NCBI GenBank assembly: GCA_035644495.1
Contig: DASQOM010000064.1
Coordinates: 15,085-79,084, forward strand
Reading direction: 5' to 3'
DNA from: Planctomycetota bacterium
GTDB taxonomy: Bacteria; Planctomycetota; MHYJ01; JACPRB01
Length of the DNA stretch: 64,000 nt
Part shown: positions 1,068-36,685 of the stretch, one piece after another
Position numbering within the stretch: position 1 is the stretch's first letter
Layout: each line of letters opens with the position of its first letter
The notes under the pieces: model-generated
Told to the model about the DNA's origin: nothing
What the model saw: only the letters and a program-made list of their open reading frames with translations
The model's database searches: none
Made by a program: the position numbers and the translations under genes

Positions 1068-1083
1068 GCGCGGTCTCCTGTCG

Positions 1084-5077: not shown

Positions 5078-5080
5078 CGC

Positions 5081-8200: not shown

Positions 8201-8203
8201 CGC

Positions 8204-13192: not shown

Positions 13193-13296
13193 GCGGGTGC
13201 GGGTAAAATCAGTTGCCTTGGAATAATGGCGGGATTATCTTCAGGGCTGCCTTGGTCCCGGTCCCGCCGCAGTGAACACTGAGGGAGGAGTCGACT

Positions 13297-14829: not shown

Positions 14830-14870
14830 AATAGAGAGTCTGATTTTATTTCCCCGTCAGGAGGAAGGTC

Positions 14871-15374: not shown

Positions 15375-15415
15375 GGTGATCGAGTACTTCCTGAAGACAT
15401 AAGGAGAACCATTCC

Positions 15416-16903: not shown

Positions 16904-16999
16904 CGCCTTCTCCGAGTTGGTCGTCTAATCATAACTTTGGCACCCGGTCGCGGTGGCCGGGGGGATGGAAAAGTGAAACCTTAGTGGGAGCATACAGCT

Positions 17000-17494: not shown

Positions 17495-17557
17495 TGATCG
17501 ATGCCGGTACCCCCGCCCCGGCGCGCGGTCCGGGGCGGGGGCCGGCTTCTCTTCGCA

Positions 17558-17971: not shown

Positions 17972-17982
17972 GCGGGCTTCCC

Positions 17983-20717: not shown

Positions 20718-23352
20718 CCTGAAATCCCTGGTCGCCCGGTTGAACCGGTTCTGCACGCGGTCCCTCGAGGCCGCCGCCGGCCTCTGCGTCTCCAGGACCA
20801 ACTACGAGGTTTCGCCGGAGCACCTGCTCCACGCGATGATCGACGATCCTTCGGCCGACCTCCAGACGATCTTCAAGCATTTCGGCATCGAGGCCGGCCG
20901 CGTCCAGAAGGGGCTCATCCAGGTGATCGAGGGCTTCAAGTCGGGCAACCCCGGCCGGCCCACGTTCTCCCCCCTGCTTGTCGAGTGGTTCCAGCAGGCC
21001 TGGCTGGTGGGATCCCTGGACTTCGGCCTGGCCGAAATCCGCTCCGGCATCCTCCTGCAGGCCCTGATGGCCAACCCCACCCGCTTCGGCGCCGACGAGT
21101 GGATGCCGCTTCTCGAGGGCATCAATCGCAGCGACCTCAAGGCGAAATACGCGACCATCATCTCCGCGTCGAGCGAGCGGTCGAACTTCATGGGCTCGGG
21201 CACGGCGTCCCCGTCGGGTTCCTCCCCCGCGGGCGGAGGAAGCCCGGCCGGCGGCGGCGACTCCGCCCTCGCCAAGTATGCGAACAACTTCACCAAGCAG
21301 GCGCGCGAGAACAAGATCGACCCGGTCTTCGGCCGCGACCGCGAAATCCGCCAGATGATCGACATCCTGGCCCGGCGCCGGAAGAACAACCCCATCTGCG
21401 TGGGCGAACCCGGCGTCGGCAAGACGGCCGTCGTGGAAGGCCTGGCCCTGAAAATCATCGAGGGCGACGTTCCCGACGCGCTCAAGAACGTGGAGCTGAT
21501 GGGCCTGGACATGGGCCTCCTGCAGGCCGGCGCCAGCGTCAAGGGCGAGTTCGAGAACCGGCTGAAGGGCGTGATCGAGGAGGTCAAGTCCTCGCCGAAG
21601 CCCATCATCATGTTCATCGACGAGGCCCATACGCTGATCGGCGCGGGCGGACAGGCGGGCGGCGGCGACGCGGCCAACCTGCTCAAGCCGGCCCTCGCGC
21701 GAGGGGAGCTGCGGACCATCGCGGCCACGACCTGGAGCGAGTACAAGAAGTACTTCGAGAAGGACGCCGCGCTCGCACGCCGCTTCCAGCTCGTCAAGCT
21801 CGACGAGCCGGACGAGGAGACCACGATCACCATGCTGCGCGGCCTCCGGGACCGCTACGAGAAGGCGCACGACGTCGTCATCCGCGACGATTCGCTCCAG
21901 GCCGCCGCGCAGCTGGGCAGCCGCTATATCGCGGGCCGGCAGCACCCGGACAAGGGCGTCGACCTCATGGACACCAGCGCGGCCCGGGTCAAGATCGCCC
22001 TCACCACCAAGCCGCCGGAACTGCAGGACCTCGAGCGCCGGATCCAGACGCTGGAGCGCGAGCAGTCGGCCCTGAAACGCGACAAGGCCGGCGGCGCGAA
22101 GGAGCTGGACGAGCGGCTGAACGAAGTGGCCGCGGAAATCGCTTCCACGAAGGTGAAGGTCGGACAGATCACGGAGCGCTGGCAGAAGGAGAAGGCTGCC
22201 GTCGACAAGGTGCTCGACATCCGGAAGAAAATGGACGGGCCGGACGGCAAGAAGGACGCCGAGAAACTCGCCAAGGACCTGGAGGGGGCCCAGGCGGCGC
22301 TGAAGGAGATCCAGGGCAAGGACCCGATCATCTTCGCCGATGTCACCCCCGAAGTGGTCGCGCGCGTCGTGGCCGACTGGACGGGCATCCCGATCGGCAA
22401 GATGGTCCAGGACCAGGCGGCGGCCCTACTCTCGTTCGAAGACAGCCTGCGCAAGCGGATCAAGGGTCAGGATCACGTGAGCTCCATGGTCGGCAAGGGC
22501 ATCCGCGCGGCGAAGGCGGGGCTGAAGAACCCGAAGACGCCGATGGGCGTCTTCCTGTTCGTCGGGCCCTCCGGCGTCGGCAAGACGGAGACGGCGCTCG
22601 GCGTGGCGGACCTGCTGTTCGGCGGCGAACGCTTCCTGACGGTCATCAACATGTCCGAGTTCCAGGAGAAGCACACGGTGTCGCGCCTGATCGGTTCGCC
22701 CCCCGGCTACGTGGGCTACGGCGAGGGCGGCGTGCTCACCGAGGCGGTGCGGCAGAAGCCGTACTCCGTCGTGCTTCTGGACGAATGCGAAAAGGCCGAC
22801 CCGGAGGTGCTCAACCTCTTCTACCAGGTGTTCGACAAGGGCATGCTTTCGGACGGCGAAGGCCGCGAGGTGGACTTCAAGGATACGATCCTCTTCCTGA
22901 CCAGCAACCTCGCGACGGACCTGATCATGCAGAGCGCGGCCGACGGCACGAAGCCGGCCATGGACGACCTGGTGGCGCTGATCCGGCCCGCGCTCTCCAA
23001 GCATTTCAAGCCCGCGCTCCTGGCGCGCATGACGATCATCCCCTTCTATCCCATCGGGCCCGACGCCCTGAAGGAGATCGCCCGTCTCAAGCTGGGCCAG
23101 CTCGAGAAGCGGCTCAAGGAGAACCACCGGATGGCGATGGACATCGATCCCAAGGTGATCGACGCGATTGCCGAGCGCTGCACCGAGGTGGAAACGGGCG
23201 CCCGCAACGTGGACCACATCATCAGCGGAACCCTGCTGCCGAAGATCTCGAGCGAGATCCTCCAGCAGATGTCGACAGGGTCGATGCCGGACAAGATCAC
23301 GGTGACCCTGGACGACAAGGGGGAGTTTGCGTTCACGTTCTCTCGAAAGTAG
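20704..23352 (+). CDS. clpV: ClpV (TssH) AAA+ ATPase
   Basis: 882 aa. Clp N-domain and two AAA+ modules (GEPGVGKTAVVEGLA; GPSGVGKTETALGVAD). Confidence 0.95.
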   Translation: MVEVNLKSLVARLNRFCTRSLEAAAGLCVSRTNYEVSPEHLLHAMIDDPSADLQTIFKHFGIEAGRVQKGLIQVIEGFKSGNPGRPTFSPLLVEWFQQAWLVGSLDFGLAEIRSGILLQALMANPTRFGADEWMPLLEGINRSDLKAKYATIISASSERSNFMGSGTASPSGSSPAGGGSPAGGGDSALAKYANNFTKQARENKIDPVFGRDREIRQMIDILARRRKNNPICVGEPGVGKTAVVEGLALKIIEGDVPDALKNVELMGLDMGLLQAGASVKGEFENRLKGVIEEVKSSPKPIIMFIDEAHTLIGAGGQAGGGDAANLLKPALARGELRTIAATTWSEYKKYFEKDAALARRFQLVKLDEPDEETTITMLRGLRDRYEKAHDVVIRDDSLQAAAQLGSRYIAGRQHPDKGVDLMDTSAARVKIALTTKPPELQDLERRIQTLEREQSALKRDKAGGAKELDERLNEVAAEIASTKVKVGQITERWQKEKAAVDKVLDIRKKMDGPDGKKDAEKLAKDLEGAQAALKEIQGKDPIIFADVTPEVVARVVADWTGIPIGKMVQDQAAALLSFEDSLRKRIKGQDHVSSMVGKGIRAAKAGLKNPKTPMGVFLFVGPSGVGKTETALGVADLLFGGERFLTVINMSEFQEKHTVSRLIGSPPGYVGYGEGGVLTEAVRQKPYSVVLLDECEKADPEVLNLFYQVFDKGMLSDGEGREVDFKDTILFLTSNLATDLIMQSAADGTKPAMDDLVALIRPALSKHFKPALLARMTIIPFYPIGPDALKEIARLKLGQLEKRLKENHRMAMDIDPKVIDAIAERCTEVETGARNVDHIISGTLLPKISSEILQQMSTGSMPDKITVTLDDKGEFAFTFSRK

Positions 23353-23361
23353 GAGACCCCC

Positions 23362-25938
23362 ATGGCACCTGAGAACAAGGCGATCGAATTCGAGTCCAAG
23401 GCCCCGAAGGCCCCCGAGCTGCTCGTGGAGACGCTGACGGGGCGCGAGGAGATTTCGAGGCCGTTCGAGTTCACGGTCGACCTCCTCTCTCGGGACAAGA
23501 GCGCCAAGCTGGAAGAGTTCGTGCGGAACCCCGCGAGCGTCTCGATCAAAGTCCCCATCTCGGGATCGGACGGGAAGCGCCGCATGAAAACGGCGAAGAT
23601 CCACGGCGTGCTGTCGACCTTCGAGCAGCTCGACCAGCTGCACGACTGGACGCGGTACCGCGCCGTCCTCGTCCCCAAGCTGTGGAGGCTGTCCCTGTCG
23701 GTCCAGACCCGGCTCTTCCTGGAGAAGAACGTCCAGGAGATCGTCACCGAGGTCCTCGAGGCGCAGGTCGGGGGCGGCGGCCAGCGGCTCACGAGCGACG
23801 ACTTCGAGTTCCGACTGAAGGGCAGCCCCACGGTCCGAAAGTACGTCGTCCAGTACCAGGAGACCGACTTGGACTTCGTCCACCGCATGCTGGAGTACTG
23901 GGGCATCTACTACTTCTTCGAGCACAAGGAAGACGGCAGCAAGGTCATCTTCGCGAACGACCCCTCCAAGTACCCCGAAATCGCGGAGAAGCCCAAGCTC
24001 CCCTATCGTCCGAACACCGAGGGTCGCAGCCGCGCCGCCGGCGCCGCCGACGCGGAGTCGATGACGGAGGAGGCGGTGATCTCGTTCGTGGCGAAACAGA
24101 ACGGCGTCTCCGCCCAAGTGACCCTGCAGGACTACTACGACGGGACGCCGACCGCGAACATGAAGGTGAGCCAGACCGTCGAAGAGGGCGACGAGGGCGA
24201 GGTGTACCGTTTCGGCGAGCACTACCTGGACGAGGGGGAAGGCGGCCAGATCGCCGAGATCCGTGCCCAGGAAATCCAGTGCCGGCAGAGGATCTTCGAC
24301 ATCCGGACCGACTGCCGGAGCATGCGCGCCGGCATCAAGTTTCCCATGGTCAAGCACTACCGCGACAGCTTCAACAGCGACTACCTGGCGGTCGTGGTCC
24401 GGCACAAGGCCAAGCAGGAGCTGAGCGGAAACGGCGATCCCACCGGGAAGCTGGAGTACGAGAACACGGTCACGGCGATCCCCGCCGCATTCAGTTTCCG
24501 GCCCGAACGGCGGATCCCCTGGCCCCGGATCTCCGGCGTCTTCAACGCGAAGGTGGACTCCGGCGGGCGGTATGCCGAGATCGACGATCAGGGCCGCTAC
24601 AAGCTGAAGTTCCCGATGGACCTGGAGGACCGCGGCGAGGGCAAGGGCTCGCCCGACATCCGCCTCGGAGAGCCGTACGCGGGCCCCGACTACGGGGACC
24701 ACCAGCCGCTGCACAAGGACTGCGAGGTTCTCGTCTCGCACGAGAACGGCGACCCCGACCGTCCGGTCATCGTCGCCGCCGTGCCGAACCCGGACAATGC
24801 GTCCCCGGTGAAGAACTCCAACCAGACGCAGTCCATCATCCGCACCGCGGCCAACAACCAGCTGGTGATGGAGGACGAGGAGGGCGAGGAGTGGATTCAT
24901 CTGTCCACGCCCAACGGGACGACCTTCATCGACATGGGGGCCGACCACAACCACATCACCCATGCTCACGCGGGCATCGTCGCCGGCACCGAGGGCGGCA
25001 TCTCGCTCAATGCGGGAAAGTCCGTCCATATCTCGGCCGGGACCCCGACCGGCGACGGCGGCGTTGAGCAGGGCGCGGCGCTCATGAACAAGATCCAGTC
25101 GTACACGGCGGCGGCGGTCACGGCGCTGTCCGTGGCCTCGGCGGCGGCAGGCGAGCGGGTCGCGACGGGCCACTCGAACTGGGCGGGCCTGGCGGCGGAC
25201 CTGGCGGGAGCCGCGGCGGGCTTCGCCGGCATGGCCCTCAACACGAACTGCTATATGAGCTCCCCCACGAAGGTGGCGGTGCTGGGCGGGGGCGAGGTCA
25301 TGATGGCGGCGGGTGCGGCCCTCGACTGCGTGGCGGCCGGGCAGGCGACCTTCGCCAGCCTGGTGTCCACGCTCGTCGGCTGTGTGAATACGCTCTCGCT
25401 GATCTCGGGACGCCACGCTGAGCTGATCTCGATCGCCGGCAACGTCACCATCGAGGCCAAGAAGGTCGGCAACGTGAAGGTCGAGGCGAAGAAGAACGTC
25501 GTCGTCGAGGCGAAGACCGAGGACATCAAGATGGAGGCCAAGCGGGACTTCCATCTCAAGACGGAAGAGGGCAAGGGCGTCATGGAGTTCCACAAGGACC
25601 TGACGATCGAGTCCAAGGAAGACAAGAAGATCATCCTGAAGGCGGGAGAGAGCTCGATCACCATGGAGGACAGCCAGATCGTCATCCGCGCCAAGAAGAT
25701 CCAGCTGCAGTCCCAGGACGACAAGAACACGGTCACGCTCGTGAACGGCGGCGACGCGACCTACGATCTCGAATTCAAGACCAAGGGCGCCATCACGATG
25801 GATGCGGAGGACAACATCGAGGTCTACACGGACAAGCTCTATTCCGTCATGGCGGAGGATACGGTCGAGTTCAAGTGCAAGAAGCTGGACGAGAAGGCGT
25901 GCGACGCGATCGAGCGCGCGAATTCGAAGGAAGGCTAA
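23362..25938 (+). CDS. vgrG: VgrG (TssI) spike protein with extended C-terminal beta-helical repeats
   Basis: 858 aa. LVETLTGREEISRPFEFTVDLLS is the VgrG N-terminus. The C-terminal ~200 aa are repetitive (VEAKKNVVVEAK...). Confidence 0.9.
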   Translation: MAPENKAIEFESKAPKAPELLVETLTGREEISRPFEFTVDLLSRDKSAKLEEFVRNPASVSIKVPISGSDGKRRMKTAKIHGVLSTFEQLDQLHDWTRYRAVLVPKLWRLSLSVQTRLFLEKNVQEIVTEVLEAQVGGGGQRLTSDDFEFRLKGSPTVRKYVVQYQETDLDFVHRMLEYWGIYYFFEHKEDGSKVIFANDPSKYPEIAEKPKLPYRPNTEGRSRAAGAADAESMTEEAVISFVAKQNGVSAQVTLQDYYDGTPTANMKVSQTVEEGDEGEVYRFGEHYLDEGEGGQIAEIRAQEIQCRQRIFDIRTDCRSMRAGIKFPMVKHYRDSFNSDYLAVVVRHKAKQELSGNGDPTGKLEYENTVTAIPAAFSFRPERRIPWPRISGVFNAKVDSGGRYAEIDDQGRYKLKFPMDLEDRGEGKGSPDIRLGEPYAGPDYGDHQPLHKDCEVLVSHENGDPDRPVIVAAVPNPDNASPVKNSNQTQSIIRTAANNQLVMEDEEGEEWIHLSTPNGTTFIDMGADHNHITHAHAGIVAGTEGGISLNAGKSVHISAGTPTGDGGVEQGAALMNKIQSYTAAAVTALSVASAAAGERVATGHSNWAGLAADLAGAAAGFAGMALNTNCYMSSPTKVAVLGGGEVMMAAGAALDCVAAGQATFASLVSTLVGCVNTLSLISGRHAELISIAGNVTIEAKKVGNVKVEAKKNVVVEAKTEDIKMEAKRDFHLKTEEGKGVMEFHKDLTIESKEDKKIILKAGESSITMEDSQIVIRAKKIQLQSQDDKNTVTLVNGGDATYDLEFKTKGAITMDAEDNIEVYTDKLYSVMAEDTVEFKCKKLDEKACDAIERANSKEG

Positions 25939-25944
25939 GAAGCC

Positions 25945-27981
25945 GTGATTCTCCGGAACGAATCATCCTTCAAGGCAGGCTGGGTGGAATGGCAGATCCG
26001 CCCTCCGAAACCCTCCGTCACGTTCGTGGTGAAGGGCACCTTCGACCTCAAGCACGGAGCGACGGCGACGCTGTCGGCCGAGCCGGCGGATGTTTCCGGA
26101 GACCTGTTCCTCCAGGACGACCTGAAAAAGGCGCTGGTGTACTCCTCCGACCTGGCGCCGTTCAAACCCATGGCGGACGTCTTCGTCTCCGGATGCGCCT
26201 ATGTCCCCGGGAAAGGGACGACGGACGTCCTGCGGGTGTCGTTCCAGGCGGGGCGGGTCTCCAAGTCCCTGGCCGTCATCGGCGACCGGCTCTGGCGCAA
26301 GGGTTTCCTCGGCAGCACGATGACCCCGATCATTCCTTTCCGCAGGATGGACCTCACGTACGACCGGAGCTACGGAGGGGAGGGCTACGCGTGGAATCCG
26401 CTCGGCCGCGGATACGCCGAGGAAGCGGGACCGGACGGCAAACCGGCGCTGCGGCTTCCGAATCTCGAGGACCCCGCGAAGCTCATCAGCAGTCCGTCCG
26501 ATACGCCGGAGCCTGCGGGATTCGGCCCCTTTCCGCTGACCTGGCCGCAGCGGATGTCGAAGTCGGGGACCTATAAGGGCAACTGGCTCAAGGAACGATT
26601 CCCCTGGTTCCCGGACGATTTCAACTGGGGCTTCTTCAATGCCGCACCCCCGGACCAGCAGGCCGCGTACTTCCGCGGGGACGAAAAGCTGCGGTTTGAG
26701 AACCTGCACCGCGATCGACCGATCTTCGAGTCGGCGCTTCCCGGATACCGGGTGCGCTGCTTCTACGCCGAGGTCACCGTCGCCGTCGTCCGGATGGTCG
26801 AAGTCCCGATGGTGCTCGACACCGTCTATGCCGACCTGGAACGCGAAAAGCTGATCCTCGTCTGGCGCGGCGACACGGACCTCGAGCGGCCGAAACTGGC
26901 GCCGGACGACACGATGTTCGTGGTGGCCGACAAGCTGACCGATCCCCCGACGCCGATCGCGGCCATCGAGAAGAGGTTGCGTGCTCTCGTTCCCGGTGCG
27001 CAGCCCGAGCTCCCGCCGCCCGTTCCGGAGCCGTCGCCCCTGCCCGCGGTCGCGGCGCCGTCCGGCCCGCCACGGGAGGAACTTGCCCGGCAGATCTCGG
27101 GCGGCGCCGGGATGACGAACGCGGACCTGACGGGTGCGGATCTCTCGGGGTTCGATCTGTCGGGTCAGGACCTGTCGGGGTGCATCCTGGCGGGAGCGAA
27201 CCTCCGGAAAGCCAATCTTGCGGGCACCAAGCTCGTCGGCGCCGTCCTCGCCGAAGCCGATTTGTCCAGGGCCTCGCTCAAGGGGGCCGACCTGTCGAAA
27301 GCCGATTTCAGCGGCGCGCGCCTGGCCGGAGCCGATCTCTCCGGCGCCAGGCTCGATGGGGCGGTGTTCGAGGAAGCGATGCTGCCGGCCGCGACGCTGA
27401 CCGGGGCGCAGGGCAAGGGAGTCCTGTTCACGGGCGCGAGGCTCCGGCGGGCCGTTCTGAAACAGGCGGTCCTTCCCGGCGCCGTCTTCGCGGACGCCGT
27501 GCTGAACGAAGCCGATCTGTCCGGCGCGATCCTGGCGGGAGCAACGTTTGAAGGCGCGTACGCGAACCCCGTGAAGTTCAACGGGGCCGACCTGACCGCC
27601 GTCAAGGCGTCGGGAGCAAACTTCCGCGCGTCGTCATTCCGGAAGATCGTCGCGCCGAAATCCGTCTGGCAGGGGGCCCGGCTCTACGCGGCGGACTTCT
27701 CCGAGGCCGATCTTTCCGAGGCGGAGTTCAGCGCCGCGTACCTCGAGGAAGCCCGGTTCAACATGGCGACGCTCCGCCGCGCCAAGCTCATGGAAGCGGT
27801 GATGCGCCACGCCGAGCTCATCCGCTGCGACCTGTTCGCGGCGGGCCTCTCAAAGGCGGACCTCACCGGCGCCAATTTCAGCGAATCGAATCTGTTCAAG
27901 GCGGACCTGCTGAAGTCGCCCCGCGAAGGGGCGAAGTTCCAGAACGCCAACGTCCAGAGAACCTGGTTGGTCTTCAAGTGA
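25945..27981 (+). CDS. DUF2169-like domain fused to pentapeptide-repeat domain (VgrG-proximal adaptor-like protein)
   Basis: 678 aa. N-terminal ~350 aa globular domain; I assign it to DUF2169 from memory of its architecture and its position after vgrG. C-terminal ~320 aa are canonical A(D/N)LxG pentapeptide repeats (ADLSGFDLSGQDLSGCILAGANLRKANLAG...). Confidence 0.65.
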   Translation: MILRNESSFKAGWVEWQIRPPKPSVTFVVKGTFDLKHGATATLSAEPADVSGDLFLQDDLKKALVYSSDLAPFKPMADVFVSGCAYVPGKGTTDVLRVSFQAGRVSKSLAVIGDRLWRKGFLGSTMTPIIPFRRMDLTYDRSYGGEGYAWNPLGRGYAEEAGPDGKPALRLPNLEDPAKLISSPSDTPEPAGFGPFPLTWPQRMSKSGTYKGNWLKERFPWFPDDFNWGFFNAAPPDQQAAYFRGDEKLRFENLHRDRPIFESALPGYRVRCFYAEVTVAVVRMVEVPMVLDTVYADLEREKLILVWRGDTDLERPKLAPDDTMFVVADKLTDPPTPIAAIEKRLRALVPGAQPELPPPVPEPSPLPAVAAPSGPPREELARQISGGAGMTNADLTGADLSGFDLSGQDLSGCILAGANLRKANLAGTKLVGAVLAEADLSRASLKGADLSKADFSGARLAGADLSGARLDGAVFEEAMLPAATLTGAQGKGVLFTGARLRRAVLKQAVLPGAVFADAVLNEADLSGAILAGATFEGAYANPVKFNGADLTAVKASGANFRASSFRKIVAPKSVWQGARLYAADFSEADLSEAEFSAAYLEEARFNMATLRRAKLMEAVMRHAELIRCDLFAAGLSKADLTGANFSESNLFKADLLKSPREGAKFQNANVQRTWLVFK

Positions 27982-28565
27982 AGGAGCAGCCCATGGCCCA
28001 CCCCATCGTCGATCACGAGCTGAGCAGCACGGGCGGGGCCCGCGTGGGGATCCGTCCGACGCCGGCCGGCGAGATCCTGGAGACCCGGGACTCCCGCGGC
28101 CAGCTCGTCTTCGAATTCAACGCCGCCTCGGGCCGCGCCGTCCTGCACTTCGGCGGCAGCGGCTTGAGACTCCAGGCGGTCGACGGGCGGGTCGAGATCG
28201 TCTCCGAGTCGACCATCGCCATCCGCTCGGAGGGCGGCATCGAGCTGGAGGGGGCCAGGGGGGTGCGGCTGGCCTGCGGGCCCCATGCCGCGACGGTGAC
28301 CCCGGAAGGAATCGACGTCGACGCGGCGGCAGCCCGCGTCCGCGTGGACGACGCCCGGGTGTCCTGCGGCAAGCTCGAGCAGAAGGTGGACCGCGTCCTG
28401 CTCTGGGCCAAGGACGTCTATCACCGGATCGAAGGGCTGTTGCACACGCGCGCGGGGAGGGTGCGGACGGAGGCCGAGCGTGATCACCTGGTGCAGGCGG
28501 AGCGGGCGCGGCTGCAGGCTGAAGGCGACGTCCATGTCCAGGGCCGTACGGTCAACCTAGGGTGA
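27978..28565 (+). CDS. DUF3540-like T6SS accessory protein (weak assignment)
   Basis: 195 aa, overlapping the previous stop. Size and position (DUF2169 - pentapeptide - ~200 aa protein - PAAR) match the recurring DUF2169/DUF3540 neighbourhood. I recognise no motif. Confidence 0.45.
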   Translation: MKEQPMAHPIVDHELSSTGGARVGIRPTPAGEILETRDSRGQLVFEFNAASGRAVLHFGGSGLRLQAVDGRVEIVSESTIAIRSEGGIELEGARGVRLACGPHAATVTPEGIDVDAAAARVRVDDARVSCGKLEQKVDRVLLWAKDVYHRIEGLLHTRAGRVRTEAERDHLVQAERARLQAEGDVHVQGRTVNLG

Positions 28566-28569
28566 TGCC

Positions 28570-29565
28570 ATGTTTCCTGTAGCCACCAACGGGGGCGGCC
28601 AGTTCATGGCCTTCCCCGACGTCTGCAAGACGCCGACCCCGGCGGGACCGGTCCCGCTTCCCTATCCCAATATGGGCCAGGGATCCGACGGAGAGGGGTC
28701 GAAGAAGGTGAAGATCGACAACAAGGAAACCCTGCGCAAGGGGGACAGCGTCCGCATGACGGCCGGCGACGAGGCGGGCTCGGTGGGCGGCGTCGTCTCG
28801 AGCAAGATCAAGGGGAAGGTCGACATCGTCATGGGCTGGCCTTCGGTGAAGGCGGAGGGCAAGGAGGTCGCCCATCTGCTGGCCTCGTCCGACCACAACG
28901 GGTCCAGCCCGGGCAATACTGCGGTGCTGGGCAAGTACATCGCGCCCGGTCAGACCAAAGTAAAGGTCATGAAAGTCAAGGGGGTCCGGCGCCGGGTTCA
29001 CAAGAAGGTGAGGAAGTATCATCCCTCGCGCGATGCTTCCGGGCAGGATCCGGCGTTCTCCCCGACGCCCCAGATGAAGAAGGACGCCAAAACGGCGGCG
29101 AAATCCACCGACGCCACAAAGAAGAAGAAGGCCAGCGAGGATCTCGGCGACGGCGGGGCCCAGAACGCGGGCGAGGAGATGGCGAAGCGGGACTATCAGG
29201 GGCTGGCCAAGCCTCCTCAGAGTCCCACCGCCGACAATCCCATATCCTTCGGCGGCCGGAGCACGACGGACGTGGTCACGTTCTGCAAGGACGGGACCAT
29301 CCTGATCTTCGAGGCGAAGGGCGGCGCATCGCCGCTCGGCACCGCCATGGCCGGCACCAAGCGCATGCAGCAGGGGACGCCCAAGTATCTCGACGAGATC
29401 CTCGATCGCATGGAGAAGGCGGGCGGCGACAAGAAGGCGGTTGCGGACAAGATCAAGGCACAGATGCAGGCGGACCCGAGCAAGGTGCGGTACTGCGAGG
29501 CCCGCACCGAATACGACGCCAATGGCGATCCGGCCGACACGGTGATCAAAGAGTTCGACCCGTAG
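28570..29565 (+). CDS. PAAR-like (DUF4150) T6SS effector with C-terminal PD-(D/E)xK nuclease-like domain
   Basis: N-terminus FMAFPDVCKTPTPAGPVPLPYPN is the DUF4150/PAAR-like signature. It is followed by a Lys-rich linker (KKKKASEDLGDGG). The C-terminal domain has TTDVVTFCKDGTILIFEAKGG, a D-x10-E-x-K restriction-endonuclease-fold motif. Confidence 0.7.
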   Translation: MFPVATNGGGQFMAFPDVCKTPTPAGPVPLPYPNMGQGSDGEGSKKVKIDNKETLRKGDSVRMTAGDEAGSVGGVVSSKIKGKVDIVMGWPSVKAEGKEVAHLLASSDHNGSSPGNTAVLGKYIAPGQTKVKVMKVKGVRRRVHKKVRKYHPSRDASGQDPAFSPTPQMKKDAKTAAKSTDATKKKKASEDLGDGGAQNAGEEMAKRDYQGLAKPPQSPTADNPISFGGRSTTDVVTFCKDGTILIFEAKGGASPLGTAMAGTKRMQQGTPKYLDEILDRMEKAGGDKKAVADKIKAQMQADPSKVRYCEARTEYDANGDPADTVIKEFDP

Positions 29566-29581
29566 GGAGAGAGAGGACGCC

Positions 29582-30355
29582 ATGCCCAGGACACTCGGAC
29601 ACAAGTTCAAGCCGGACAGGTTCCAGGATACCTACGATTTCTGGACCCGTCAGCAGGGGGTGCTGTATCCCGGCCGCGCCGAAGCCCGGAAGAAGCAGAA
29701 CGTCAAGCTGTTCTGGGGCATCTTCGAAAACGGACTGAAGCTGTTCCGGATCGGCTACCTGCTGGACGAGCCGTTTCCCTCGCTGATCAAGAAGGCCCGC
29801 GAGGCCCTGCCGGAACTGATTCCGGCGATGGAGCTGGGATATGCGTTCGAGCCCGACAAGATCCAGGATGCGCTGTGCCTGGCGCTGACCGTCCGTCTTC
29901 CCAAGATGATCGACTGGTTGGCCGATCTGCCCCGCGACGCCTATACGGATCCCAGCGTCGAGGTCAGCGGGATCGCCTTTCTCATCACGGAGGCGATCCA
30001 GGCCGGCGCGAAGGGGAACCGGAAGGCGTTTGACGCGGCCGTGAAGAAACTCCGGCCGGCGATGGCTCCCAAGAAGCTCCTGGTGAGCCCGCGCCAGGAG
30101 ACCGCCATCTACGCTCCGATCGTGGACCTTCTGGAAGCCGTCTCCGCGGGCGACCCGGCGCAATTCGAGAAGGCCTGGAAGGCCAAGGGCGACGCGTGGA
30201 AGAAGACCTACTCGAGAGCGAGCGAGGCCGGGAACTTCGACGGGATCCTCGACATCACCGCGCTTGGCATTGCCCGTATCGCCGAAGGGTTCGGCATGAA
30301 GATTCCGGCCACCCATCCCTATGCGCCGCTCGATATTCTCGGAGCCGCCAAGTGA
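29582..30355 (+). CDS. Hypothetical protein; candidate immunity protein for the upstream effector
   Basis: 257-aa ORF 16 nt downstream of the effector. No recognisable domain. Position typical of a cognate immunity gene. Confidence 0.4.
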   Translation: MPRTLGHKFKPDRFQDTYDFWTRQQGVLYPGRAEARKKQNVKLFWGIFENGLKLFRIGYLLDEPFPSLIKKAREALPELIPAMELGYAFEPDKIQDALCLALTVRLPKMIDWLADLPRDAYTDPSVEVSGIAFLITEAIQAGAKGNRKAFDAAVKKLRPAMAPKKLLVSPRQETAIYAPIVDLLEAVSAGDPAQFEKAWKAKGDAWKKTYSRASEAGNFDGILDITALGIARIAEGFGMKIPATHPYAPLDILGAAK

Positions 30356-30948
30356 GCTCGAGTCTCCGCTTCTTCTCGGTAAGCTGGAAGGAACTCTCCG
30401 GCGCCATCGGCAGCCACCATCAGGGGCTGTATCGGAAGCTCCTGAAGATCGCGGAACCGATCTTCGAGGAGGTCTACGAGGCGTCGAGTTTCCGGGGAGG
30501 TCCTGACCTCGCCGAAGGCATCGACCGCTGGATCCAGGGGGAGGTCGTGGAAGAAGGACAGACCGGGGTCCGGGTCCAGTCGCTCGGCGACGCGCTCGGC
30601 TTCCTCTCGCTGATCCAGTATTTCGGAAAGGAAGTGGGGAGCCTCGAGCATACCTCTTCATCGTTCGACCAATTCGAGAGATTCCTGCTGGGTCCGGCGA
30701 CGACGGCGCTCCGGCCGCCGGTCCCCCTGACGCAGCTCCGGTCGCGTCCGATCCTGGGGGTGGAGAGCGGCCAGGACGCGCTCTGGGGAGGGCTCAGCCG
30801 GGAAGAGCTGTCGGCGCTTGCGTCGCCGCTTTCGGGTGATCCGCCCCAACCCCCCGACCAAGACGACGCCCTCTGGATGGTGCCGCTCTGGGATTCGCTC
30901 GGCTCCGCCCTCGATCTCGGCAAGGACCTGATAACGATTTACGCCTGA
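30352..30948 (+). CDS. Hypothetical protein (second candidate immunity/accessory gene)
   Basis: GTG start overlapping the upstream stop (GTGA), with no ATG available. 198 aa. Protein-like composition. Confidence 0.35.
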   Translation: MSSSLRFFSVSWKELSGAIGSHHQGLYRKLLKIAEPIFEEVYEASSFRGGPDLAEGIDRWIQGEVVEEGQTGVRVQSLGDALGFLSLIQYFGKEVGSLEHTSSSFDQFERFLLGPATTALRPPVPLTQLRSRPILGVESGQDALWGGLSREELSALASPLSGDPPQPPDQDDALWMVPLWDSLGSALDLGKDLITIYA

Positions 30949-31029: not shown

Positions 31030-32949
31030 ATGATCCTCAAGACCCGGGAGTCCGTCCTGGAGCGGGTCCGCGGCGGACTCCCCTTCAAGGACGTCATCGT
31101 CCTGGACGCCGATCTCTCCAAGGCCGACCTCCGGAAAGCCAACTTCAGCGAGGGACACTTCCAGAACGTGCTGTTCGAGGGCACCGACCTGACCGGCGCG
31201 CTCTTCGTTTCCGCGGACCTCCTCAACGTCGCCCTCCGCGGGGCCAATCTCACGGGCGCGGATCTGACGGGCGTCCAGCTGACGGGAACCGATATTTCCG
31301 GAACCACCTTGACCCGCGCCAGCCTCGGAAACCTCGACCTGGCCGGCGTCCTCCTCGGCAGCAAGAATCTCTCCCAGACCCAGTGGGCCTCCTCCAACCT
31401 GCGCAGCGCCGACCTCTCCGGATCCGACCTGACCGGCGCCCAGTTCCGCGGCACCTCGCTTCGCGCCGCGCGGCTCGTCGGCGTGAAGTTCGGGGGCGCC
31501 ACGATCACCAACGCCGACTTCACGGGCGCCGACCTTTCCGACGCCGTCCTCGACCGGTCAACGTTCAGCCAGGTGGACTTCACGAGCGCCAACGCCCCGG
31601 GCGCGACCTGGGCCGGGTCGGTCCTGGACCAGGTGAATTTCCAGGGGGCCGATCTGCACGGAGCCAGATCTTTCCCCAAGGCGCCGAAGGACTGCGTGTT
31701 CAATCGCGTCGACCTGTCCGAGTCCGACCTCTCGGGCTTCGACGCCCCGAAGGTCCGGATGCGGGGCGCGAACCTGACGAGCTGCAACCTGGAGGGGAGC
31801 AAGCTTGCGGGTGCGGATCTCGTCGAGTCCCGCATGATCGGCGCCGGGCTGACGGGGGCGGACCTGTCGGGCGCGGACCTCAGCCGCGCCGTGCTCGAGG
31901 GCGTCCGCCTGAAGAAGGCGAATCTGAAGGGTGCCACGCTGATGAAGGTCCGTCTCAACCGGGCGATCCTCGAGGACGCCGTGCTCGACGAGGCCAAGCT
32001 CTATGAGACGGACCTCCGCGAGGCGAACGTTCCCTCGATCCCCGGCGGACTCCTCGGCGGGGCAAATATGGCCGGCCTCGATCTGGCCGGCCGCGATTTT
32101 TCCGGCGCCGACCTGTCCAAGGTGGATCTCCGGGGGGCGCGGCTGACCAAGTCGAACCTGTCCGGCACCGACCTGACCGAGGCCATCCTCGCCGGCGCGG
32201 TCCTGGACGGCGCGGACCTCCAGCAGGCGATGCTGTCCGGCGTCGACCTGACCCGTGTCAAGCTGGCCGGCGCGAACCTGCTCGGCGCGCAGATCGAGCG
32301 CTGCAAGCTCGACGACGCCGACCTGAGCGGCTGCAAGCTCGAGGGCGCGGACCTCAAGGGGCTCGACCTCAAACGCACGAAGTTCAAGGGCGCCGCCCTG
32401 GTGAAATGCGCGATGGCCGGGTCCGATCTCACCGGCGCCGACCTGTCGGGCTGCGATCTCACCGATGCCGACTTCACCGGCGCGAAGCTGGGCGGGGCGA
32501 ACCTGAGCCATGCCAGCCTCAAGGGATGCACCTTCGAAGCGGCCGACCTGATGCAGGCCCGCTTTGAGGAGGCCAGCGGCGTCTCCACGTTCTTCGGGCA
32601 GGCGAAGCTGTCCAAGTCGAATTTCGTCCGCGCCAGGCTCAAGTCGGCCTGCTTCCAGGGCGCCCAGCTGGACGGGGCGGATTTCTCCGGGGTGGCCATG
32701 GCGGAAGGCTGGTTCGTCGAGGCCGATGTCCGCTCGGCGAGGTTTCTCAACGCCCAGCTGACCTTCGCCGACTTTTCCCACGCCAAGATCCAGCAGGCCG
32801 ACTTTTCGGGCGCGGACCTCTCCGGCGCCAATCTGCACGCGACCCTGGAGTCCGAAGCCCGGTTCCAGGGAGCCAACCTGAAACAGGTCCGGCATACGGA
32901 CCCTGAGCTACTGGATGCCGAGTTATGGAAACCACTGAAGCCAAAGTAG
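31030..32949 (+). CDS. Pentapeptide-repeat protein (639 aa)
   Basis: Almost the entire protein is tandem A(D/N)LxG pentapeptide repeats (GADLTGVQLTGTDISG...GADLSGANLHA). Confidence 0.85.
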   Translation: MILKTRESVLERVRGGLPFKDVIVLDADLSKADLRKANFSEGHFQNVLFEGTDLTGALFVSADLLNVALRGANLTGADLTGVQLTGTDISGTTLTRASLGNLDLAGVLLGSKNLSQTQWASSNLRSADLSGSDLTGAQFRGTSLRAARLVGVKFGGATITNADFTGADLSDAVLDRSTFSQVDFTSANAPGATWAGSVLDQVNFQGADLHGARSFPKAPKDCVFNRVDLSESDLSGFDAPKVRMRGANLTSCNLEGSKLAGADLVESRMIGAGLTGADLSGADLSRAVLEGVRLKKANLKGATLMKVRLNRAILEDAVLDEAKLYETDLREANVPSIPGGLLGGANMAGLDLAGRDFSGADLSKVDLRGARLTKSNLSGTDLTEAILAGAVLDGADLQQAMLSGVDLTRVKLAGANLLGAQIERCKLDDADLSGCKLEGADLKGLDLKRTKFKGAALVKCAMAGSDLTGADLSGCDLTDADFTGAKLGGANLSHASLKGCTFEAADLMQARFEEASGVSTFFGQAKLSKSNFVRARLKSACFQGAQLDGADFSGVAMAEGWFVEADVRSARFLNAQLTFADFSHAKIQQADFSGADLSGANLHATLESEARFQGANLKQVRHTDPELLDAELWKPLKPK

Positions 32950-33155: not shown

Positions 33156-33719
33156 ATGTTCAAAGTGAAGGGCGAAGGTCTGTCACCCGCCGAAACGACG
33201 GCGATCACCAACATCTGCTCGAGAGTCGCGGCGGCTGCCGCGCAGGCGGCCAACATGAAGGCCGGGAATCGAGGGAAGTGGTTCGGCACCATGGCCAACT
33301 CGGACGTTCTGCTCGGCAATCTGCGGACGATGGACAAGTACCTCAACAAGCAGTGCACGCAGCTCACGTTCGTCCGAAAGGCCACCGGGCAGATCATCGA
33401 CTCCGTGAACGCCGAGGATTCCGATTACGGCCAGGTGCTGCCGAACGTCTTCTCGACGACGGTGGGATTCAAGCAGACCACGAAGCACGTCAGCTCCGGC
33501 CTGCGGATCTTCGCGATGAACGAGCTGATCCGGGCGATCGCGACGAACGACATCAAGGAGCAGCTCAACTACGTCTATCACGAGGTCAGCCACAAGGTGC
33601 TGGACACCATGGATTATAAGTACGGGAAGCCGAAGTGCAAGGCCCTCGCCATCAACAACCCCGGCCGCGCGGTGAAGAACGCCGACAACTACGGGTACTT
33701 CATCTGCGAGGTGGCGTAG
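33156..33719 (+). CDS. Small zinc metallopeptidase, M35/aspzincin-like (HEVSH + TMDYKYG)
   Basis: 187 aa. HEVSHKVLDTMDYKYG matches HExxH followed closely by the GTxDxxYG aspzincin motif. No signal peptide. Own promoter. Confidence 0.5.
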   Translation: MFKVKGEGLSPAETTAITNICSRVAAAAAQAANMKAGNRGKWFGTMANSDVLLGNLRTMDKYLNKQCTQLTFVRKATGQIIDSVNAEDSDYGQVLPNVFSTTVGFKQTTKHVSSGLRIFAMNELIRAIATNDIKEQLNYVYHEVSHKVLDTMDYKYGKPKCKALAINNPGRAVKNADNYGYFICEVA

Positions 33720-33736: not shown

Positions 33737-36685
33737 TCAGGGCCCTGGCTGACGGAGTTTTCCACGGACCGAGTCGGCCAGGGCCTTGAAGGCCGCCTCC
33801 CCCGCCTTCTGCTGCTCGAGAACCACGACGAAGGGACCCCGTCTCAGGATTCTGAAGTGGGCGGGATTCCGGCCCTGCTTTTTGCGCGTCTCTTCGAGCA
33901 GCGTCCCCCAGGCCGTCGCCATCGTCTCTTCCTTCAGCTCGTAGACGTCGATCTTCGTCTCGCTCGGATCGACCATCGCCTCCCACCAGCCCTTGACCTC
34001 CGACGAGGTCGAGCGGCCCAGGCGGGGATTCGGGCTGAGCACGGGCGCGCGGTCGAGGTAAAGCGAGCCCTTGGGAAGATCCGCGGTACGGAGCGCAAAG
34101 TCCTCCACGGAGGGAGGCCCGAGGCGCATCTTCCTGCGGAGCACCGGCTCCAGGGCCTCGAGCACCGGCCAGGCGCTCTCCGGCCCGCTCACCCACGCGA
34201 GCACCGTGTCCTTGATGAGGACGATGTCGCCGGGGTGCGAGGGCTGCTCCCGCCGCAGCTTCTCCACCAGGCCGTAGTCGAAGGTCTGCTGGAACTTGCA
34301 GGCGAGCGACACGTCCTTCCCCTTGATCGTGCAGGCGTAGTTCCTCCGGTCGATCGCCTCGTCGACGATCTCAAATCCGGCGGGCAGGTCCGACGGCTGG
34401 AGCCTCGCGGACATCAGCTGGAGCGGCCGCGGATGGTTGCGGTCCCAGCCGAACTTCTCGCGGACAAAATTCTCGATCGCGTCGAGGGATTCGTCGTCGG
34501 GAGCCTCCACGCCCCAGCACAGGCCGTGGCCGTCCGTCCCCGCTCCGCGCTTCGACAGCGCGTCATTGAACGCGCTGCGGTGCGTGCTGTCCGCGGGCTG
34601 GAAGATCACGATCGACCCGTGCGGCTTGAGGACGGCCCGCCAGGCGCGCCGGACCTCCGACGCCTGCACGCCCTTGATGGGGATCTGTTTGAGGATGGCG
34701 CGGACGTCGGTCTCCACGGAGTCGAAGCGGTATCCGTCGGGAAGCTCCGCTTCCACGGGGACGACGCTGTCGAAGGTGTAGTCGTCCGTGCCCATGCAGA
34801 TCCGGAGTTTTCCGGCCACCTTCTCGTACGCGCCGATCTGGCGGCCGCGGAGCGCCATCGCCAGGATCGTCCGGCCCGCCACGCAGGACTCCGTCCGCGT
34901 CGCGTCCTTGCGGATGGCCTGGAGGATGGAGGCCTCCTCGGTCTTCGCGCGCGCGGCCGTGTCGTAGAGGGCCGCCACGACGACGATGCCCCCCTTCTGA
35001 TCCGCGTGGTACATCGACTGCTCCGAACCCGCGACCAGCCCCGTCTTCGACAGGACGGAAGGGTTGAGCGATTCGATCATCCAGTCCTCGGGGAGCTCGC
35101 CCTTCTCCACCGTCAGGCTGTCCAGCGGCACGTCGGGCACCAGGGCGGGAAGCCCCAGTTTCTTCTGGAGCATCTCGACGAGCTGCGCGAACGCGTAGCG
35201 GTTCTGCGGGTGGATGGCCCAGGCCAGGACCAGCAGCGGGCCCTTCCGGTGCGTCCACTTGTGCTTCAGCGGCTCGAGCCCGAGGAACGTCTTCTCGATG
35301 CGCTCCGCCGCGGGCGTCTCGATCGCGGCGAAGGCGACCGACCAGCGCCACCAGGCGGCCACGTACCCCTGCTTGATCTCCGAGCGGTCGATGTTCTGAA
35401 GCCCGACGCCGTCGAGATTCTTGATCAGGATGTCGATGTCGGCCGGATCCTTGACCGGCATGGGGTTGCGCGGGAACTCGGTGCCGGTCTGCTGGTAAAC
35501 AAAGCCGCCCGGCCGCTCCTCGGGGGAGAAGTAGAGCTTCGTGAGGTCCACCGCTTCCACGGGAGCGTCGACCTTGACCACCGCCGGCGGCGTCGGGGGC
35601 ACGATCGCGGGGGGCGTCGCCGCCGGAGGGCTCTTGAGGAGGGCGACGCCCGCGAGGAGGACGGCCGCCGCGGTGACCACGCCCATGGCGATCATCGGGC
35701 GATTGGCGCTCTTCTTCGCAGGCTTGGGGGTGATCACCGTGGGCATATAAGACTCGGCCGAAGTCCCCACGGTGGTCGCCTTCGTCACGGCGTCCTTGAT
35801 GTCGCCGGCGTTCTGATATCGCCGGTCGGGCGACTTTTCCAGCGCTTTGAGGACGACTTCGTCGAGGCGGACGTCGATCTTGACCATCTTGGAGGGCATC
35901 TCGAAGCGGCCGATGGGCAGCTCGCCGGTCAGCATCTCGTAGAGGACGACGCCGATGGCATAGATGTCGGCGCGGTGGTCGACGGACTTCGGGTTCTCGA
36001 CCTGCTCCGGCGCCATATAGTGCGGGGTGCCCATGACCATGTTGGTCATGGTCAGGTTGACCGGGGCGTCGGCGCCGACGAGCTTGGCCAGACCGAAGTC
36101 GGCGATCTTCACGCGGCCGCGCTTGTCGAGGAGGATGTTCTCCGGCTTGATGTCGCGATGGACGACGCCTTCGCCGTGGGCATATTCGAGGGCGTCGCAG
36201 ATCTGCGGGACGATCTTCAGCCCCTGCTCCGGGGTGAGCTTCCGGTCGCGGAGGATCTGGCGGAGGTTGGTGCCGTCGATGAACTCCATCGCGAAGAAGA
36301 AGAAGCCGCCCTCGGCGCCGAAGTCGTAGACGGCGACGATGTTGGGGTGGCTGAGGGAGCCGAGCGCCTTGGCCTCGCGGATGAAGCGGTTCTGGAAATC
36401 GGGGTCGAGGGCCAGCTTCAGGGGGAGGATCTTGAGGGCGACCATGCGGTCGAGCGCGGGCTGGCGCGCCTTATAGACGACGCCCATGCCGCCCCTGCCC
36501 AGCAGTTCGAGGATCTCCAGCCCGTGGAACGACTGGCCGGTCTTGAGAGGCAGATCTTCAGGCGGGGCGGTGGGTTCCGTCGACTTCTGCGCGAACCCCG
36601 CCATGCACTTGGAGCAGAGGTCCCCGGAAAAGAGGCTGCCGCAGGTGGAGCATTTTTTCATGGTATTCATATCCCCACCCTGCAT
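33737..36685 (-). CDS. Membrane Ser/Thr protein kinase with N-terminal Cys4 zinc ribbon and large extracytoplasmic C-terminal domain
   Basis: 982 aa. [16 protein letters not shown]; kinase motifs [38 protein letters not shown] helix near residue 330, then ~620 aa of unknown C-terminal domain. Confidence 0.9.

What the first reader, a model, noticed from the sequence alone, without database searches (positions are those of the whole stretch)
28570..29565. PAAR-like (DUF4150) effector with Lys-rich linker and a C-terminal PD-(D/E)xK nuclease-like toxin domain
The N-terminus has the FPDVCxTP...PxPYPN signature of DUF4150 PAAR-like spike proteins. After a Lys-rich linker, the last ~110 aa contain TTDVV-TFCKDGTILIF-EAK-GG. 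This is an Asp, a hydrophobic beta-strand, then E-x-K with the spacing of the restriction-endonuclease fold. That suggests a DNase-type antibacterial toxin delivered on the VgrG tip. I cannot place the C-terminal domain in a named toxin family, so it may be undescribed.
Basis: partly seen in the sequence, partly recalled or inferred. Interest (0 to 1): 0.7.

Follow-up and report, generated by a model that had tools for sequence, protein, structure and literature searches.

The report
T6SS spike toxin with REase-fold nuclease
This gene encodes a type VI secretion spike-tip protein whose C-terminal domain is a restriction-endonuclease-fold nuclease toxin of a family predicted in 2012 (most likely Tox-REase-6); its Imm49 antidote gene lies next to it, so it is a fairly ordinary new member of a known kind of bacterial weapon.

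Summary
The ORF at 28570..29565 (+, 331 aa) is real. Residues 12-112 match Pfam Tox-PAAR-like/DUF4150 (E 2.4e-27) and carry a PLPY ("PIPY") motif. A Lys/Arg-rich linker follows, then a ~145-aa C-terminal domain (residues 188-331).

An exhaustive HMMER search found about 113 homologues of this domain. Most sit at the C-terminal end of Rhs, PT-HINT, PAAR-like and other carrier proteins. E248, Q268, G269 and Y273 are invariant, and D234 and K250 nearly so.

The claim that the domain is undescribed is not. The next gene (29582..30355) is Pfam Imm49, and so is the downstream gene at 33 of 49 related loci in several phyla. Zhang et al. 2012 pair Imm49 with Tox-REase-1 and Tox-REase-6, and the E, D, ExK, Q, Y signature fits Tox-REase-6. 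That family has no Pfam model, which explains the empty scans.

The gene lies in a T6SS cluster after VgrG, DUF2169-pentapeptide and DUF3540 genes, which is a Class III Tvp loading system.

Verdict: new member of a known kind. Minor points of interest are a toxin-bearing PAAR-like protein in a Class III system, a conserved third gene after Imm49, and a family without valid biochemical data.

The parts
23362..25938 (+). VgrG spike protein (858 aa), the carrier for the PAAR-like effector
   Evidence: Pfam Phage_GPD E 1.9e-72, DUF2345, Phage_base_V. It follows ClpV, TssF, TssE, Hcp, TssC, TssB, TssA and TssM.
25945..27981 (+). DUF2169 domain fused to pentapeptide repeats (TvpAB-like chaperone of the PAAR-like domain)
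   Evidence: Pfam DUF2169 E 1e-86 and Pentapeptide E 1.5e-58. Role taken from PMC11883445 and PMC13373197.
27978..28565 (+). DUF3540 protein (TvpC-like, pre-complex VgrG mimic)
   Evidence: Pfam DUF3540 E 7.5e-13 and a weak DUF2345 hit. DUF3540 defines Class III TvpC in PMC13373197.
28570..29565 (+). The effector gene (331 aa plus stop): PAAR-like domain, basic linker, nuclease toxin domain
   Evidence: It is 43% identical over its full length to metagenomic protein P0009, which sits in the same gene order.
28603..28905 (+). Tox-PAAR-like / DUF4150 ('PIPY') domain, residues 12-112; the PLPY motif is at 28654-28665
   Evidence: PF13665 at 95.6 bits against a cut-off of 31; canonical PAAR_motif only 13.7 bits against 27. 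Motif positions.
28945..29130 (+). Lys/Arg-rich linker, residues 126-187
   Evidence: Composition. Similarly basic linkers are seen in the PAAR-linked homologues P0005, P0007 and P0009.
29131..29562 (+). C-terminal PD-(D/E)xK toxin domain, residues 188-331 (Tox-REase-6-like). Key codons: E190 29137-29139, D234 29269-29271, E248 29311-29313, K250 29317-29319, Q268 29371-29373, Y273 29386-29388
29582..30355 (+). Imm49-family immunity protein (257 aa)
   Evidence: PF15575 E 1.5e-13, 51.3 bits against a cut-off of 30.1. Imm49 follows the toxin domain at 33 of 49 related loci.
30352..30948 (+). Conserved 198-aa ORF translationally coupled to the Imm49 gene (its GTG start overlaps the Imm49 stop); function unknown
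   Evidence: 45% identical (E 5e-59) to the 201-aa gene that follows Imm49 in L056/L057. A gene of the same size and position is on the contig of P0121. Only a weak DUF7691 hit.
31030..32949 (+). Stand-alone pentapeptide-repeat protein (639 aa, TvpB-like)
   Evidence: Pfam Pentapeptide E 2e-123. In L056 the equivalent 500-aa pentapeptide protein lies between the DUF2169 and DUF3540 genes.

Best explanation
The gene encodes a specialised type VI secretion effector. Its N-terminal DUF4150 (PAAR-like, 'PIPY') domain caps the VgrG trimer encoded three genes upstream. The neighbouring DUF2169-pentapeptide, DUF3540 and pentapeptide proteins (a Class III Tvp accessory set) help load it. A basic, probably flexible linker tethers a ~145-aa C-terminal PD-(D/E)xK phosphodiesterase domain of the polymorphic-toxin family that Zhang et al. 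2012 called Tox-REase-6. After T6SS firing the domain reaches the cytoplasm of a rival bacterium and cleaves nucleic acid, most likely DNA. Catalysis would use a metal site formed by D234, E248 and K250 with help from E190, D194, Q268 and Y273. The producer is protected by the Imm49 protein encoded 16 nt downstream, which binds and blocks the toxin. What is shown here: the domain identities, the fold prediction, residue conservation, the polymorphic-toxin distribution, the recurrent Imm49 linkage and the conserved gene order. What is inferred: nuclease activity, the substrate, toxicity, neutralisation and the loading mechanism.
Confidence: 0.82

Rival explanations
1. The architecture and delivery are the same, but the C-terminal domain is an RNase (targeting tRNA, rRNA or mRNA), or cleaves both RNA and DNA, rather than being a DNase.
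Against: The full acidic/Lys triad (D234, E248, K250) plus the alpha1 acidic residues is typical of metal-dependent DNA phosphodiesterases. The splicing endonucleases do not use this triad. The best structural matches are DNA enzymes (Holliday junction resolvases, exonucleases, restriction enzymes). The characterised PD-(D/E)xK T6SS toxins PoNe, RhsB-CT and TseV are DNases.
Confidence: 0.12
2. The domain belongs to a family other than Tox-REase-6. It could be a divergent Tox-REase-1/PoNe, or one of the Aave_0499 or IdrD clades of the 'Plu1493-like' group, or a still unnamed sister family that merely shares Imm49.
Against: The extra invariant Tyr (Y273) is what distinguishes the published Tox-REase-6 signature from that of Tox-REase-1. 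About 90% of PoNe genes are followed by DUF1911, but 0 of 49 loci here are. Vibrio Rhs-toxin-Imm49(-Imm49) loci carrying this domain match the architecture that the author of the Tox-REase nomenclature labelled Tox-REase-6. The Pfam VRR_NUC model touches only 1 of 54 members, at E 0.11.
Confidence: 0.15
3. The C-terminal domain is a catalytically dead or non-toxic structural appendage, for example a filler of the baseplate cavity, and the downstream genes are not immunity genes.
For: PMC13373197 proposes that Class III Tvp systems work with small PAAR proteins and that accessory proteins fill the baseplate cavity. R259 is lost in this subclade.
Against: All candidate catalytic residues are retained. 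The same domain ends Rhs and PT-HINT polymorphic toxins. A tightly linked Imm49 gene is kept at this locus and in its relatives, which is the hallmark of an active toxin.
Confidence: 0.04

Closest known systems
Tox-REase-6 toxin domain with Imm49 immunity (Zhang, de Souza, Anantharaman, Iyer, Aravind 2012, Biol Direct 7:18)
   Same: Restriction-endonuclease fold. Conserved E, D, ExK, Q, Y. Located at the C-terminus of polymorphic toxins, including Rhs and T6SS-linked proteins. Imm49 is encoded directly downstream. The phyletic spread is broad (Actinobacteria, Proteobacteria, Bacteroidetes).
   Different: Membership could not be checked against a reference sequence or profile. This copy is fused to a DUF4150 PAAR-like domain rather than Rhs. 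The PAAR-linked subclade lacks the otherwise common Arg of the LGxR motif. Here the family also reaches Myxococcota and Planctomycetota, and in Actinobacteria it pairs with DUF6301.
Tse7 (PA0099) of P. aeruginosa and Tde2 of A. tumefaciens: DUF4150 PAAR-like effectors with C-terminal DNase domains, loaded with DUF2169 chaperones
   Same: Same modular logic: vgrG, a DUF2169 gene, a DUF4150-toxin gene, then the immunity gene. The toxin is a nuclease carried on the spike tip.
   Different: Their toxin domains have unrelated folds. By my recollection these are Tox-GHH2 for Tse7 and Ntox15 for Tde2; the eLife text read links Tox-GHH2 to PA0099 and Tse7 and Ntox15 to the Tde effectors. They use Class II and Class I Tvp systems; this locus has the Class III set (DUF2169-pentapeptide, pentapeptide, DUF3540).
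TseV1-4 of Salmonella bongori (PAAR-like plus VRR-Nuc) and the 'Plu1493-like' PD-(D/E)xK effectors PoNe, IdrD-CT and RhsB/Aave_0499
   Same: PAAR-like N-terminus (TseV) and a PD-(D/E)xK nuclease toxin with the D...(D/E)xK core. All are T6SS-delivered antibacterial toxins.
   Different: No Pfam VRR_NUC match. The immunity protein is Imm49, not DUF3396 (TsiV) or DUF1911 (PoNi). The family-specific EAKGG...QGTxxY motif was not compared with those clades.
TseT / TseTBg (Tox-REase-5, PF15648)
   Same: A restriction-endonuclease-fold T6SS toxin with an 'EAK' catalytic motif. By my recollection TseTBg is PAAR-linked; this was not checked here.
   Different: No PF15648 match at E <= 10. The published Tox-REase-5 signature (Y, FDG, EAK, Y, Q, W) and its partner Imm52 differ from what is seen here.
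Class III Tvp accessory system of Serratia marcescens Db10 (Monlezun, Earl, Coulthurst 2026)
   Same: A DUF2169-pentapeptide fusion (TvpAB), a separate pentapeptide protein (TvpB), a DUF3540 protein (TvpC), a DUF4150 PAAR protein and a long VgrG.
   Different: In their representative strains the Class III PAAR protein is small and has no effector domain. Here it carries a nuclease toxin, and the TvpB-like gene lies downstream of the toxin-immunity module.

Membership tests
Tox-PAAR-like / DUF4150 ('PIPY') spike-tip domain | Match to Pfam PF13665 above the gathering score | tested here: met
   95.6 bits against a cut-off of 31, E 2.4e-27, residues 12-112.
Tox-PAAR-like / DUF4150 ('PIPY') spike-tip domain | A PIPY-type motif instead of PAAR motifs (Sachar et al. 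2025) | tested here: met
   P-L-P-Y at residues 29-32. PAAR_motif PF05488 scores only 13.7 bits against a cut-off of 27. Motif definition from the abstract of PMC11883445.
Tox-PAAR-like / DUF4150 ('PIPY') spike-tip domain | Genetic linkage with vgrG and a DUF2169 gene | tested here: met
   VgrG at 23362-25938 and DUF2169 at 25945-27981, directly upstream. The same order occurs in L056/L057; the contig of P0121 conserves the DUF2169-to-DUF7691-like part, but no VgrG family is recorded on it.
PD-(D/E)xK phosphodiesterase superfamily | alpha1-beta1-beta2-beta3-alpha2-beta4 core fold | tested here: met
PD-(D/E)xK phosphodiesterase superfamily | Conserved Asp at the start of beta2 and (D/E)-x-K in beta3 | tested here: met
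   D234 precedes the strand at model positions 53-57. E248 and K250 lie in the strand at 62-69. Conservation is 50/54, 54/54 and 53/54.
PD-(D/E)xK phosphodiesterase superfamily | Metal-dependent nuclease activity | not testable with these tools
   Needs biochemistry.
Tox-REase-6 (Zhang et al. 2012) | Published conserved-residue signature E, D, ExK, Q, Y | tested here: met
   E190 (40/54), D234, E248-x-K250, Q268 (54/54) and Y273 (54/54). Signature taken from Table 2 of PMC3482391.
Tox-REase-6 (Zhang et al. 2012) | Imm49 as the adjacent immunity protein | tested here: met
   Window gene 29582-30355 matches PF15575 at E 1.5e-13. Imm49 follows the domain at 33/49 related loci.
Tox-REase-6 (Zhang et al. 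2012) | C-terminal module of polymorphic toxins (RHS and other carriers; T6SS among the delivery routes) | tested here: met
   Hits lie at protein C-termini. Carriers are RHS+DUF6531, PT-HINT, DUF4781 and PAAR-like. Vibrio Rhs-domain-Imm49(-Imm49) loci occur, as described for Tox-REase-6 in PMC6156420 (retracted paper, used only for nomenclature).
Tox-REase-6 (Zhang et al. 2012) | Sequence or profile match to a reference member | not testable with these tools
   No Pfam or NCBIfam model exists. The reference alignment is a figure and is not held as text.
Tox-REase-1 / PoNe | Downstream PoNi immunity gene (DUF1911 with or without DUF1910), present for about 90% of PoNe genes | tested here: not met
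   None of 49 downstream proteins hit DUF1911 or DUF1910; only Imm49 (33 loci plus the window) and DUF6301 (4) were found. PoNe statistics from PMC6688995.
Tox-REase-2/-3/-5/-7/-9 and VRR-Nuc (families with Pfam models) | Match to the Pfam model | tested here: not met
   No family at E <= 10 for the window domain. Across 54 members there are only scattered sub-threshold hits (NERD 2, Mrr_cat 1, Hjc 1, VRR_NUC 1).
Class III Tvp accessory system (Monlezun et al. 2026) | A DUF2169 protein with a pentapeptide extension, a separate pentapeptide protein, and a DUF3540 TvpC | tested here: met
   Genes at 25945-27981, 31030-32949 and 27978-28565. Definitions.
Class III Tvp accessory system (Monlezun et al. 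2026) | A small PAAR protein without an effector domain (a tendency noted in their strain set, not a formal criterion) | tested here: not met
   The PAAR-like protein is 331 aa and carries a toxin domain. The same holds in L056/L057 and the contig of P0121.

The most novel reading that the evidence does not exclude
The most novel reading has three parts. First, this locus and its metagenomic relatives are a distinct sub-type of Class III Tvp spike in which the PIPY/PAAR-like protein is itself a toxin. That goes against the suggestion that Class III systems serve small, effector-less PAAR proteins. Second, the toxin-Imm49 pair works as a three-gene module with the conserved, translationally coupled ~200-aa DUF7691-like protein, which could be a second immunity factor, a regulator or a loading factor. 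Third, the toxin family (EAKGG...QGTxxY) has no valid biochemistry and no structure, and may have an unusual substrate or mechanism.
Probability: 0.2. Interest if true: 0.45.

Novelty: new member of a known kind. Interest (0 to 1): 0.3.

Why it matters
This is a clean example of a T6SS spike-tip nuclease effector with its immunity gene and its full loading machinery at one locus. The toxin family was predicted in 2012 but has no Pfam model and no solved structure. The only functional test I found is in a retracted paper. The alignment, high-confidence model and catalytic-residue list produced here could seed a family model and guide mutagenesis. The locus also gives a natural test of the recent idea that Class III Tvp accessory complexes exist to serve small PAAR proteins, because here the PAAR-like protein carries a toxin. 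None of this changes current understanding. It fills in a known picture.

Tried and rejected
- Pfam and NCBIfam scans of the C-terminal domain, alone and across 54 homologues, gave no family.
- The word-indexed protein search found nothing with the single domain and only 4 proteins with the profile.
- phmmer and hmmsearch against PDB sequences found nothing significant. A Card1 nuclease-domain alignment over D...ExK had E 0.7.
- The single-sequence AF2 model was useless (pLDDT 43). The alignment-based model replaced it.
- Foldseek against PDB gave no hit at E <= 0.001. The afdb50 library was unavailable.
- The search for related loci with the 54-sequence alignment failed for lack of a conserved stretch and was repeated with 12 sequences.
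- The exact-sequence look-up found no public contig with the window protein.
- Cluster look-ups of the closest relatives gave only metagenomic 'hypothetical protein' or 'DUF4150' names.
- tblastn against plasmids found two Pseudoalteromonas matches; the one with an annotated feature is an 'RHS repeat-associated core domain-containing protein', and the other has none.
- I could not get a reference Tox-REase-6 sequence, because the supplements are not held.
- PoNe/Tox-REase-1 was rejected on immunity-gene linkage. The Tox-REase families with Pfam models and VRR-Nuc were rejected for lack of model matches.
- The 352-aa ORF on the minus strand (28552..29610) was dismissed as a GC-rich shadow ORF, on inference: the plus-strand product has domains and homologues.
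- The organism was not identified. GC is about 0.63-0.70.

Full report
**Observation**

The ORF at 28570..29565 on the plus strand is uninterrupted and encodes 331 aa. Its ATG lies 4 nt after the stop of the preceding gene.

Residues 12-112 match Pfam PF13665 (Tox-PAAR-like, formerly DUF4150) at 95.6 bits against a gathering score of 31. The canonical PAAR_motif model scores only 13.7 bits against 27. Residues 29-32 read PLPY. That is the 'PIPY' motif which Sachar et al. 2025 use to define these non-canonical spike-tip domains (PMC11883445).

Residues 126-200 are 27% Lys+Arg. The quoted D...ExK string is residues 232-252, with D234, E248 and K250.

**What the C-terminal domain is**

Named-family scans fail. 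Pfam finds nothing at E <= 10 and NCBIfam nothing relevant. The word-indexed protein search finds nothing, and PDB sequences give nothing.

An exhaustive phmmer search of 1.84 billion cluster representatives gave 120 hits at E <= 1e-3.
- Seven are low-complexity artefacts with many short stretches.
- The other ~113 share E-x-K-G and Q-G-[TS] motifs.
- In most of them the match ends within a few residues of the protein's C-terminus. The proteins range from 85 to about 2,900 aa.

That distribution is the signature of a polymorphic-toxin module.

In a 54-sequence alignment (A1), E248, Q268, G269 and Y273 are invariant. D234 is kept in 50/54, K250 in 53/54, G251 in 53/54, M281 in 51/54 and Y308 in 52/54. 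An N-terminal helix carries S189 (44/54), E190 (40/54), G193 (49/54) and an acidic residue at 194 (48/54).

**Fold**

- AlphaFold2 without an alignment gave a useless model (pLDDT 43).
- With A1 it gave pLDDT 95.6 and pTM 0.90.
- The model has a long helix, then strands. D234 sits just before one strand and E248/K250 lie inside the next. A family-specific hairpin follows, then two helices that begin at Q268/Y273, then two more strands. This is the alpha-beta-beta-beta-alpha-beta order of the PD-(D/E)xK core.

**Which family**

The gene 16 nt downstream (29582..30355) matches Pfam Imm49 (E 1.5e-13, above threshold).

A degenerate-pattern scan of one genome per species found 55 loci encoding the toxin domain. 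They come from Kordia, Chryseobacterium, Flavobacterium, Tenacibaculum, many Vibrio, Shewanella, Pseudoalteromonas, Inquilinus, Actinobacteria, Myxococcota, Planctomycetota and others.

I extracted the next ORF at 49 of these loci.
- 33 are Pfam Imm49.
- 4 are DUF6301, all in Actinobacteria.
- None is DUF1910 or DUF1911.

Carriers of the domain include RHS+DUF6531 proteins (Vibrio, Pseudoalteromonas), PT-HINT, DUF4781 and PAAR-like proteins.

Zhang et al. 2012 list Imm49 as the immunity partner of exactly two toxin families (PMC3482391):
- Tox-REase-1, with signature E, D, ExK, Q. It is also partnered by Imm-PA2201, which is DUF1910/1911.
- Tox-REase-6, with signature E, D, ExK, Q, Y. Its only listed partner is Imm49.

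Tox-REase-1 was later equated with PoNe (PMC9635880). About 90% of PoNe genes are followed by DUF1911 (PMC6688995). The invariant Tyr and the absence of DUF1911 partners therefore point to Tox-REase-6.

Vibrio diabolicus and V. rotiferianus carry Rhs-[this domain]-Imm49(-Imm49) loci. This is the arrangement that a paper co-authored by the originator of the nomenclature labels Tox-REase-6 with Imm49 in Vibrio Rhs loci (PMC6156420). That paper is retracted, so I use it for naming only.

I could not compare the domain with a reference Tox-REase-6 sequence, so this filing is strong but indirect. I also did not test whether the family coincides with the Aave_0499 or IdrD clades.

**Locus and delivery**

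Upstream lie TssM, TssA, TssB, TssC, Hcp, TssE, TssF and ClpV. These are followed by:
- VgrG (23362-25938);
- a DUF2169-pentapeptide fusion (25945-27981);
- a DUF3540 protein (27978-28565).

A separate 639-aa pentapeptide protein lies at 31030-32949.

This is the Class III 'Tvp' accessory set defined in Serratia marcescens: TvpAB, TvpB, TvpC (DUF3540) and a DUF4150 PAAR protein (PMC13373197). DUF2169 proteins are chaperones required for DUF4150 domains to form a spike with VgrG (PMC11883445).

The closest full-length relative, P0009, is 43% identical. It sits on two independent metagenome contigs with the order TssG, VgrG, DUF2169-PPR, PPR, DUF3540, PAAR-toxin, Imm49, 201-aa gene, 262-aa gene, TssK. 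A third contig conserves the DUF2169-to-201-aa part of this order. The module is therefore a conserved unit and not a chance juxtaposition.

**Mechanism (inferred)**

The PIPY domain caps VgrG with Tvp help. T6SS firing carries the tethered nuclease into a neighbouring cell. The D234/E248/K250 metal site, supported by E190/D194 on helix 1 and Q268/Y273 on helix 2, cleaves nucleic acid, most probably DNA. Imm49 protects the producer.

The main rival for substrate is RNA (about 0.12). The rival that the domain is inactive is unlikely (about 0.04). The rival that the family label should be different is about 0.15.

**Novelty**

PAAR-like effectors with C-terminal nucleases are well known (Tse7, Tde2, TseV1-4, TseTBg). 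The toxin family and its immunity partner were predicted in 2012. This is a new member of a known kind.

Three small points are less routine:
- The family has no Pfam model, no solved structure and no valid published biochemistry.
[quoted passage not shown] This locus and its relatives are Class III with a toxin-bearing PAAR-like protein.
- A ~200-aa gene (30352-30948) is translationally coupled to Imm49 and conserved at 45% identity in the relatives. Its only family hit is a weak DUF7691 match.

Interest is about 0.3.

Noticed in passing
window 30352-30948 (+): A 198-aa ORF whose GTG start overlaps the Imm49 stop codon (AAGTGA). It is 45% identical (E 5e-59) to the 201-aa gene that follows Imm49 in L056/L057; a 201-aa gene occupies the same position on the contig of P0121 but was not compared by sequence. 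The only family hit is a weak DUF7691 match (E 0.06 in the window, 0.0013 in L056). It may be a third component of the toxin-immunity module.
   Followed up: partly
window 33156-33719 (+): A 187-aa ORF with an Aspzincin_M35 match (E 1e-12) and HEVSH and DTMDYKYG motifs. It lies in a stretch of lower GC (0.60-0.62, against 0.65-0.70 around it). It could be a second effector, a metallopeptidase, at the edge of the T6SS island.
   Followed up: no
window 25945-27981, 27978-28565, 31030-32949: This is a Class III Tvp accessory gene set (DUF2169-pentapeptide, DUF3540, stand-alone pentapeptide protein). The stand-alone pentapeptide gene lies downstream of the toxin-immunity module here, but between the DUF2169 and DUF3540 genes in L056/L057. 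Class III is paired here with a toxin-bearing PAAR-like protein, unlike the representative strains in PMC13373197.
   Followed up: partly
window 29344-29346 (residue A259) and alignment A1: The family motif L-G-x-R has Arg in 40 of 54 members. It is Ala in the window protein and Ala or Val in three of its closest PAAR-linked relatives (P0001, P0005, P0009). The effect on activity is unknown.
   Followed up: no
L038, L043, L046, L048 (Streptomyces, Nocardia, an Actinomycetota MAG, Microbacteriaceae): In Actinobacteria the same toxin domain is followed by a ~155-aa DUF6301 protein rather than Imm49 (E 4e-9 to 1.5e-25). This suggests DUF6301 is an alternative immunity family for this toxin.
   Followed up: partly
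L022 (Vibrio diabolicus) 9-3776 and 3773-4231; L028 (V. rotiferianus) 170-5201 and 5307-6206: These are Vibrio Rhs loci carrying the same toxin domain. In V. diabolicus the domain is a separate 152-aa ORF that overlaps the end of the Rhs ORF, which could be a frameshift or an orphan cassette. In V. rotiferianus two tandem Imm49 genes follow the toxin. Both loci are followed by a SIR2-family gene.
   Followed up: partly
window 8901-23352 (+): A T6SS core gene cluster lies directly upstream: TssM, TssA, TssB, TssC, Hcp, TssE, TssF and ClpV. The 307-aa ORF at 12283-13206 and the 445-aa ORF at 6874-8211 have no Pfam match.
   Followed up: partly
window 33737-36685 (-): A 982-aa ORF on the opposite strand has an N-terminal Cys-rich motif and a Ser/Thr protein kinase signature ([14 protein letters not shown]). 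I read this from the translation and did not scan it.
   Followed up: no
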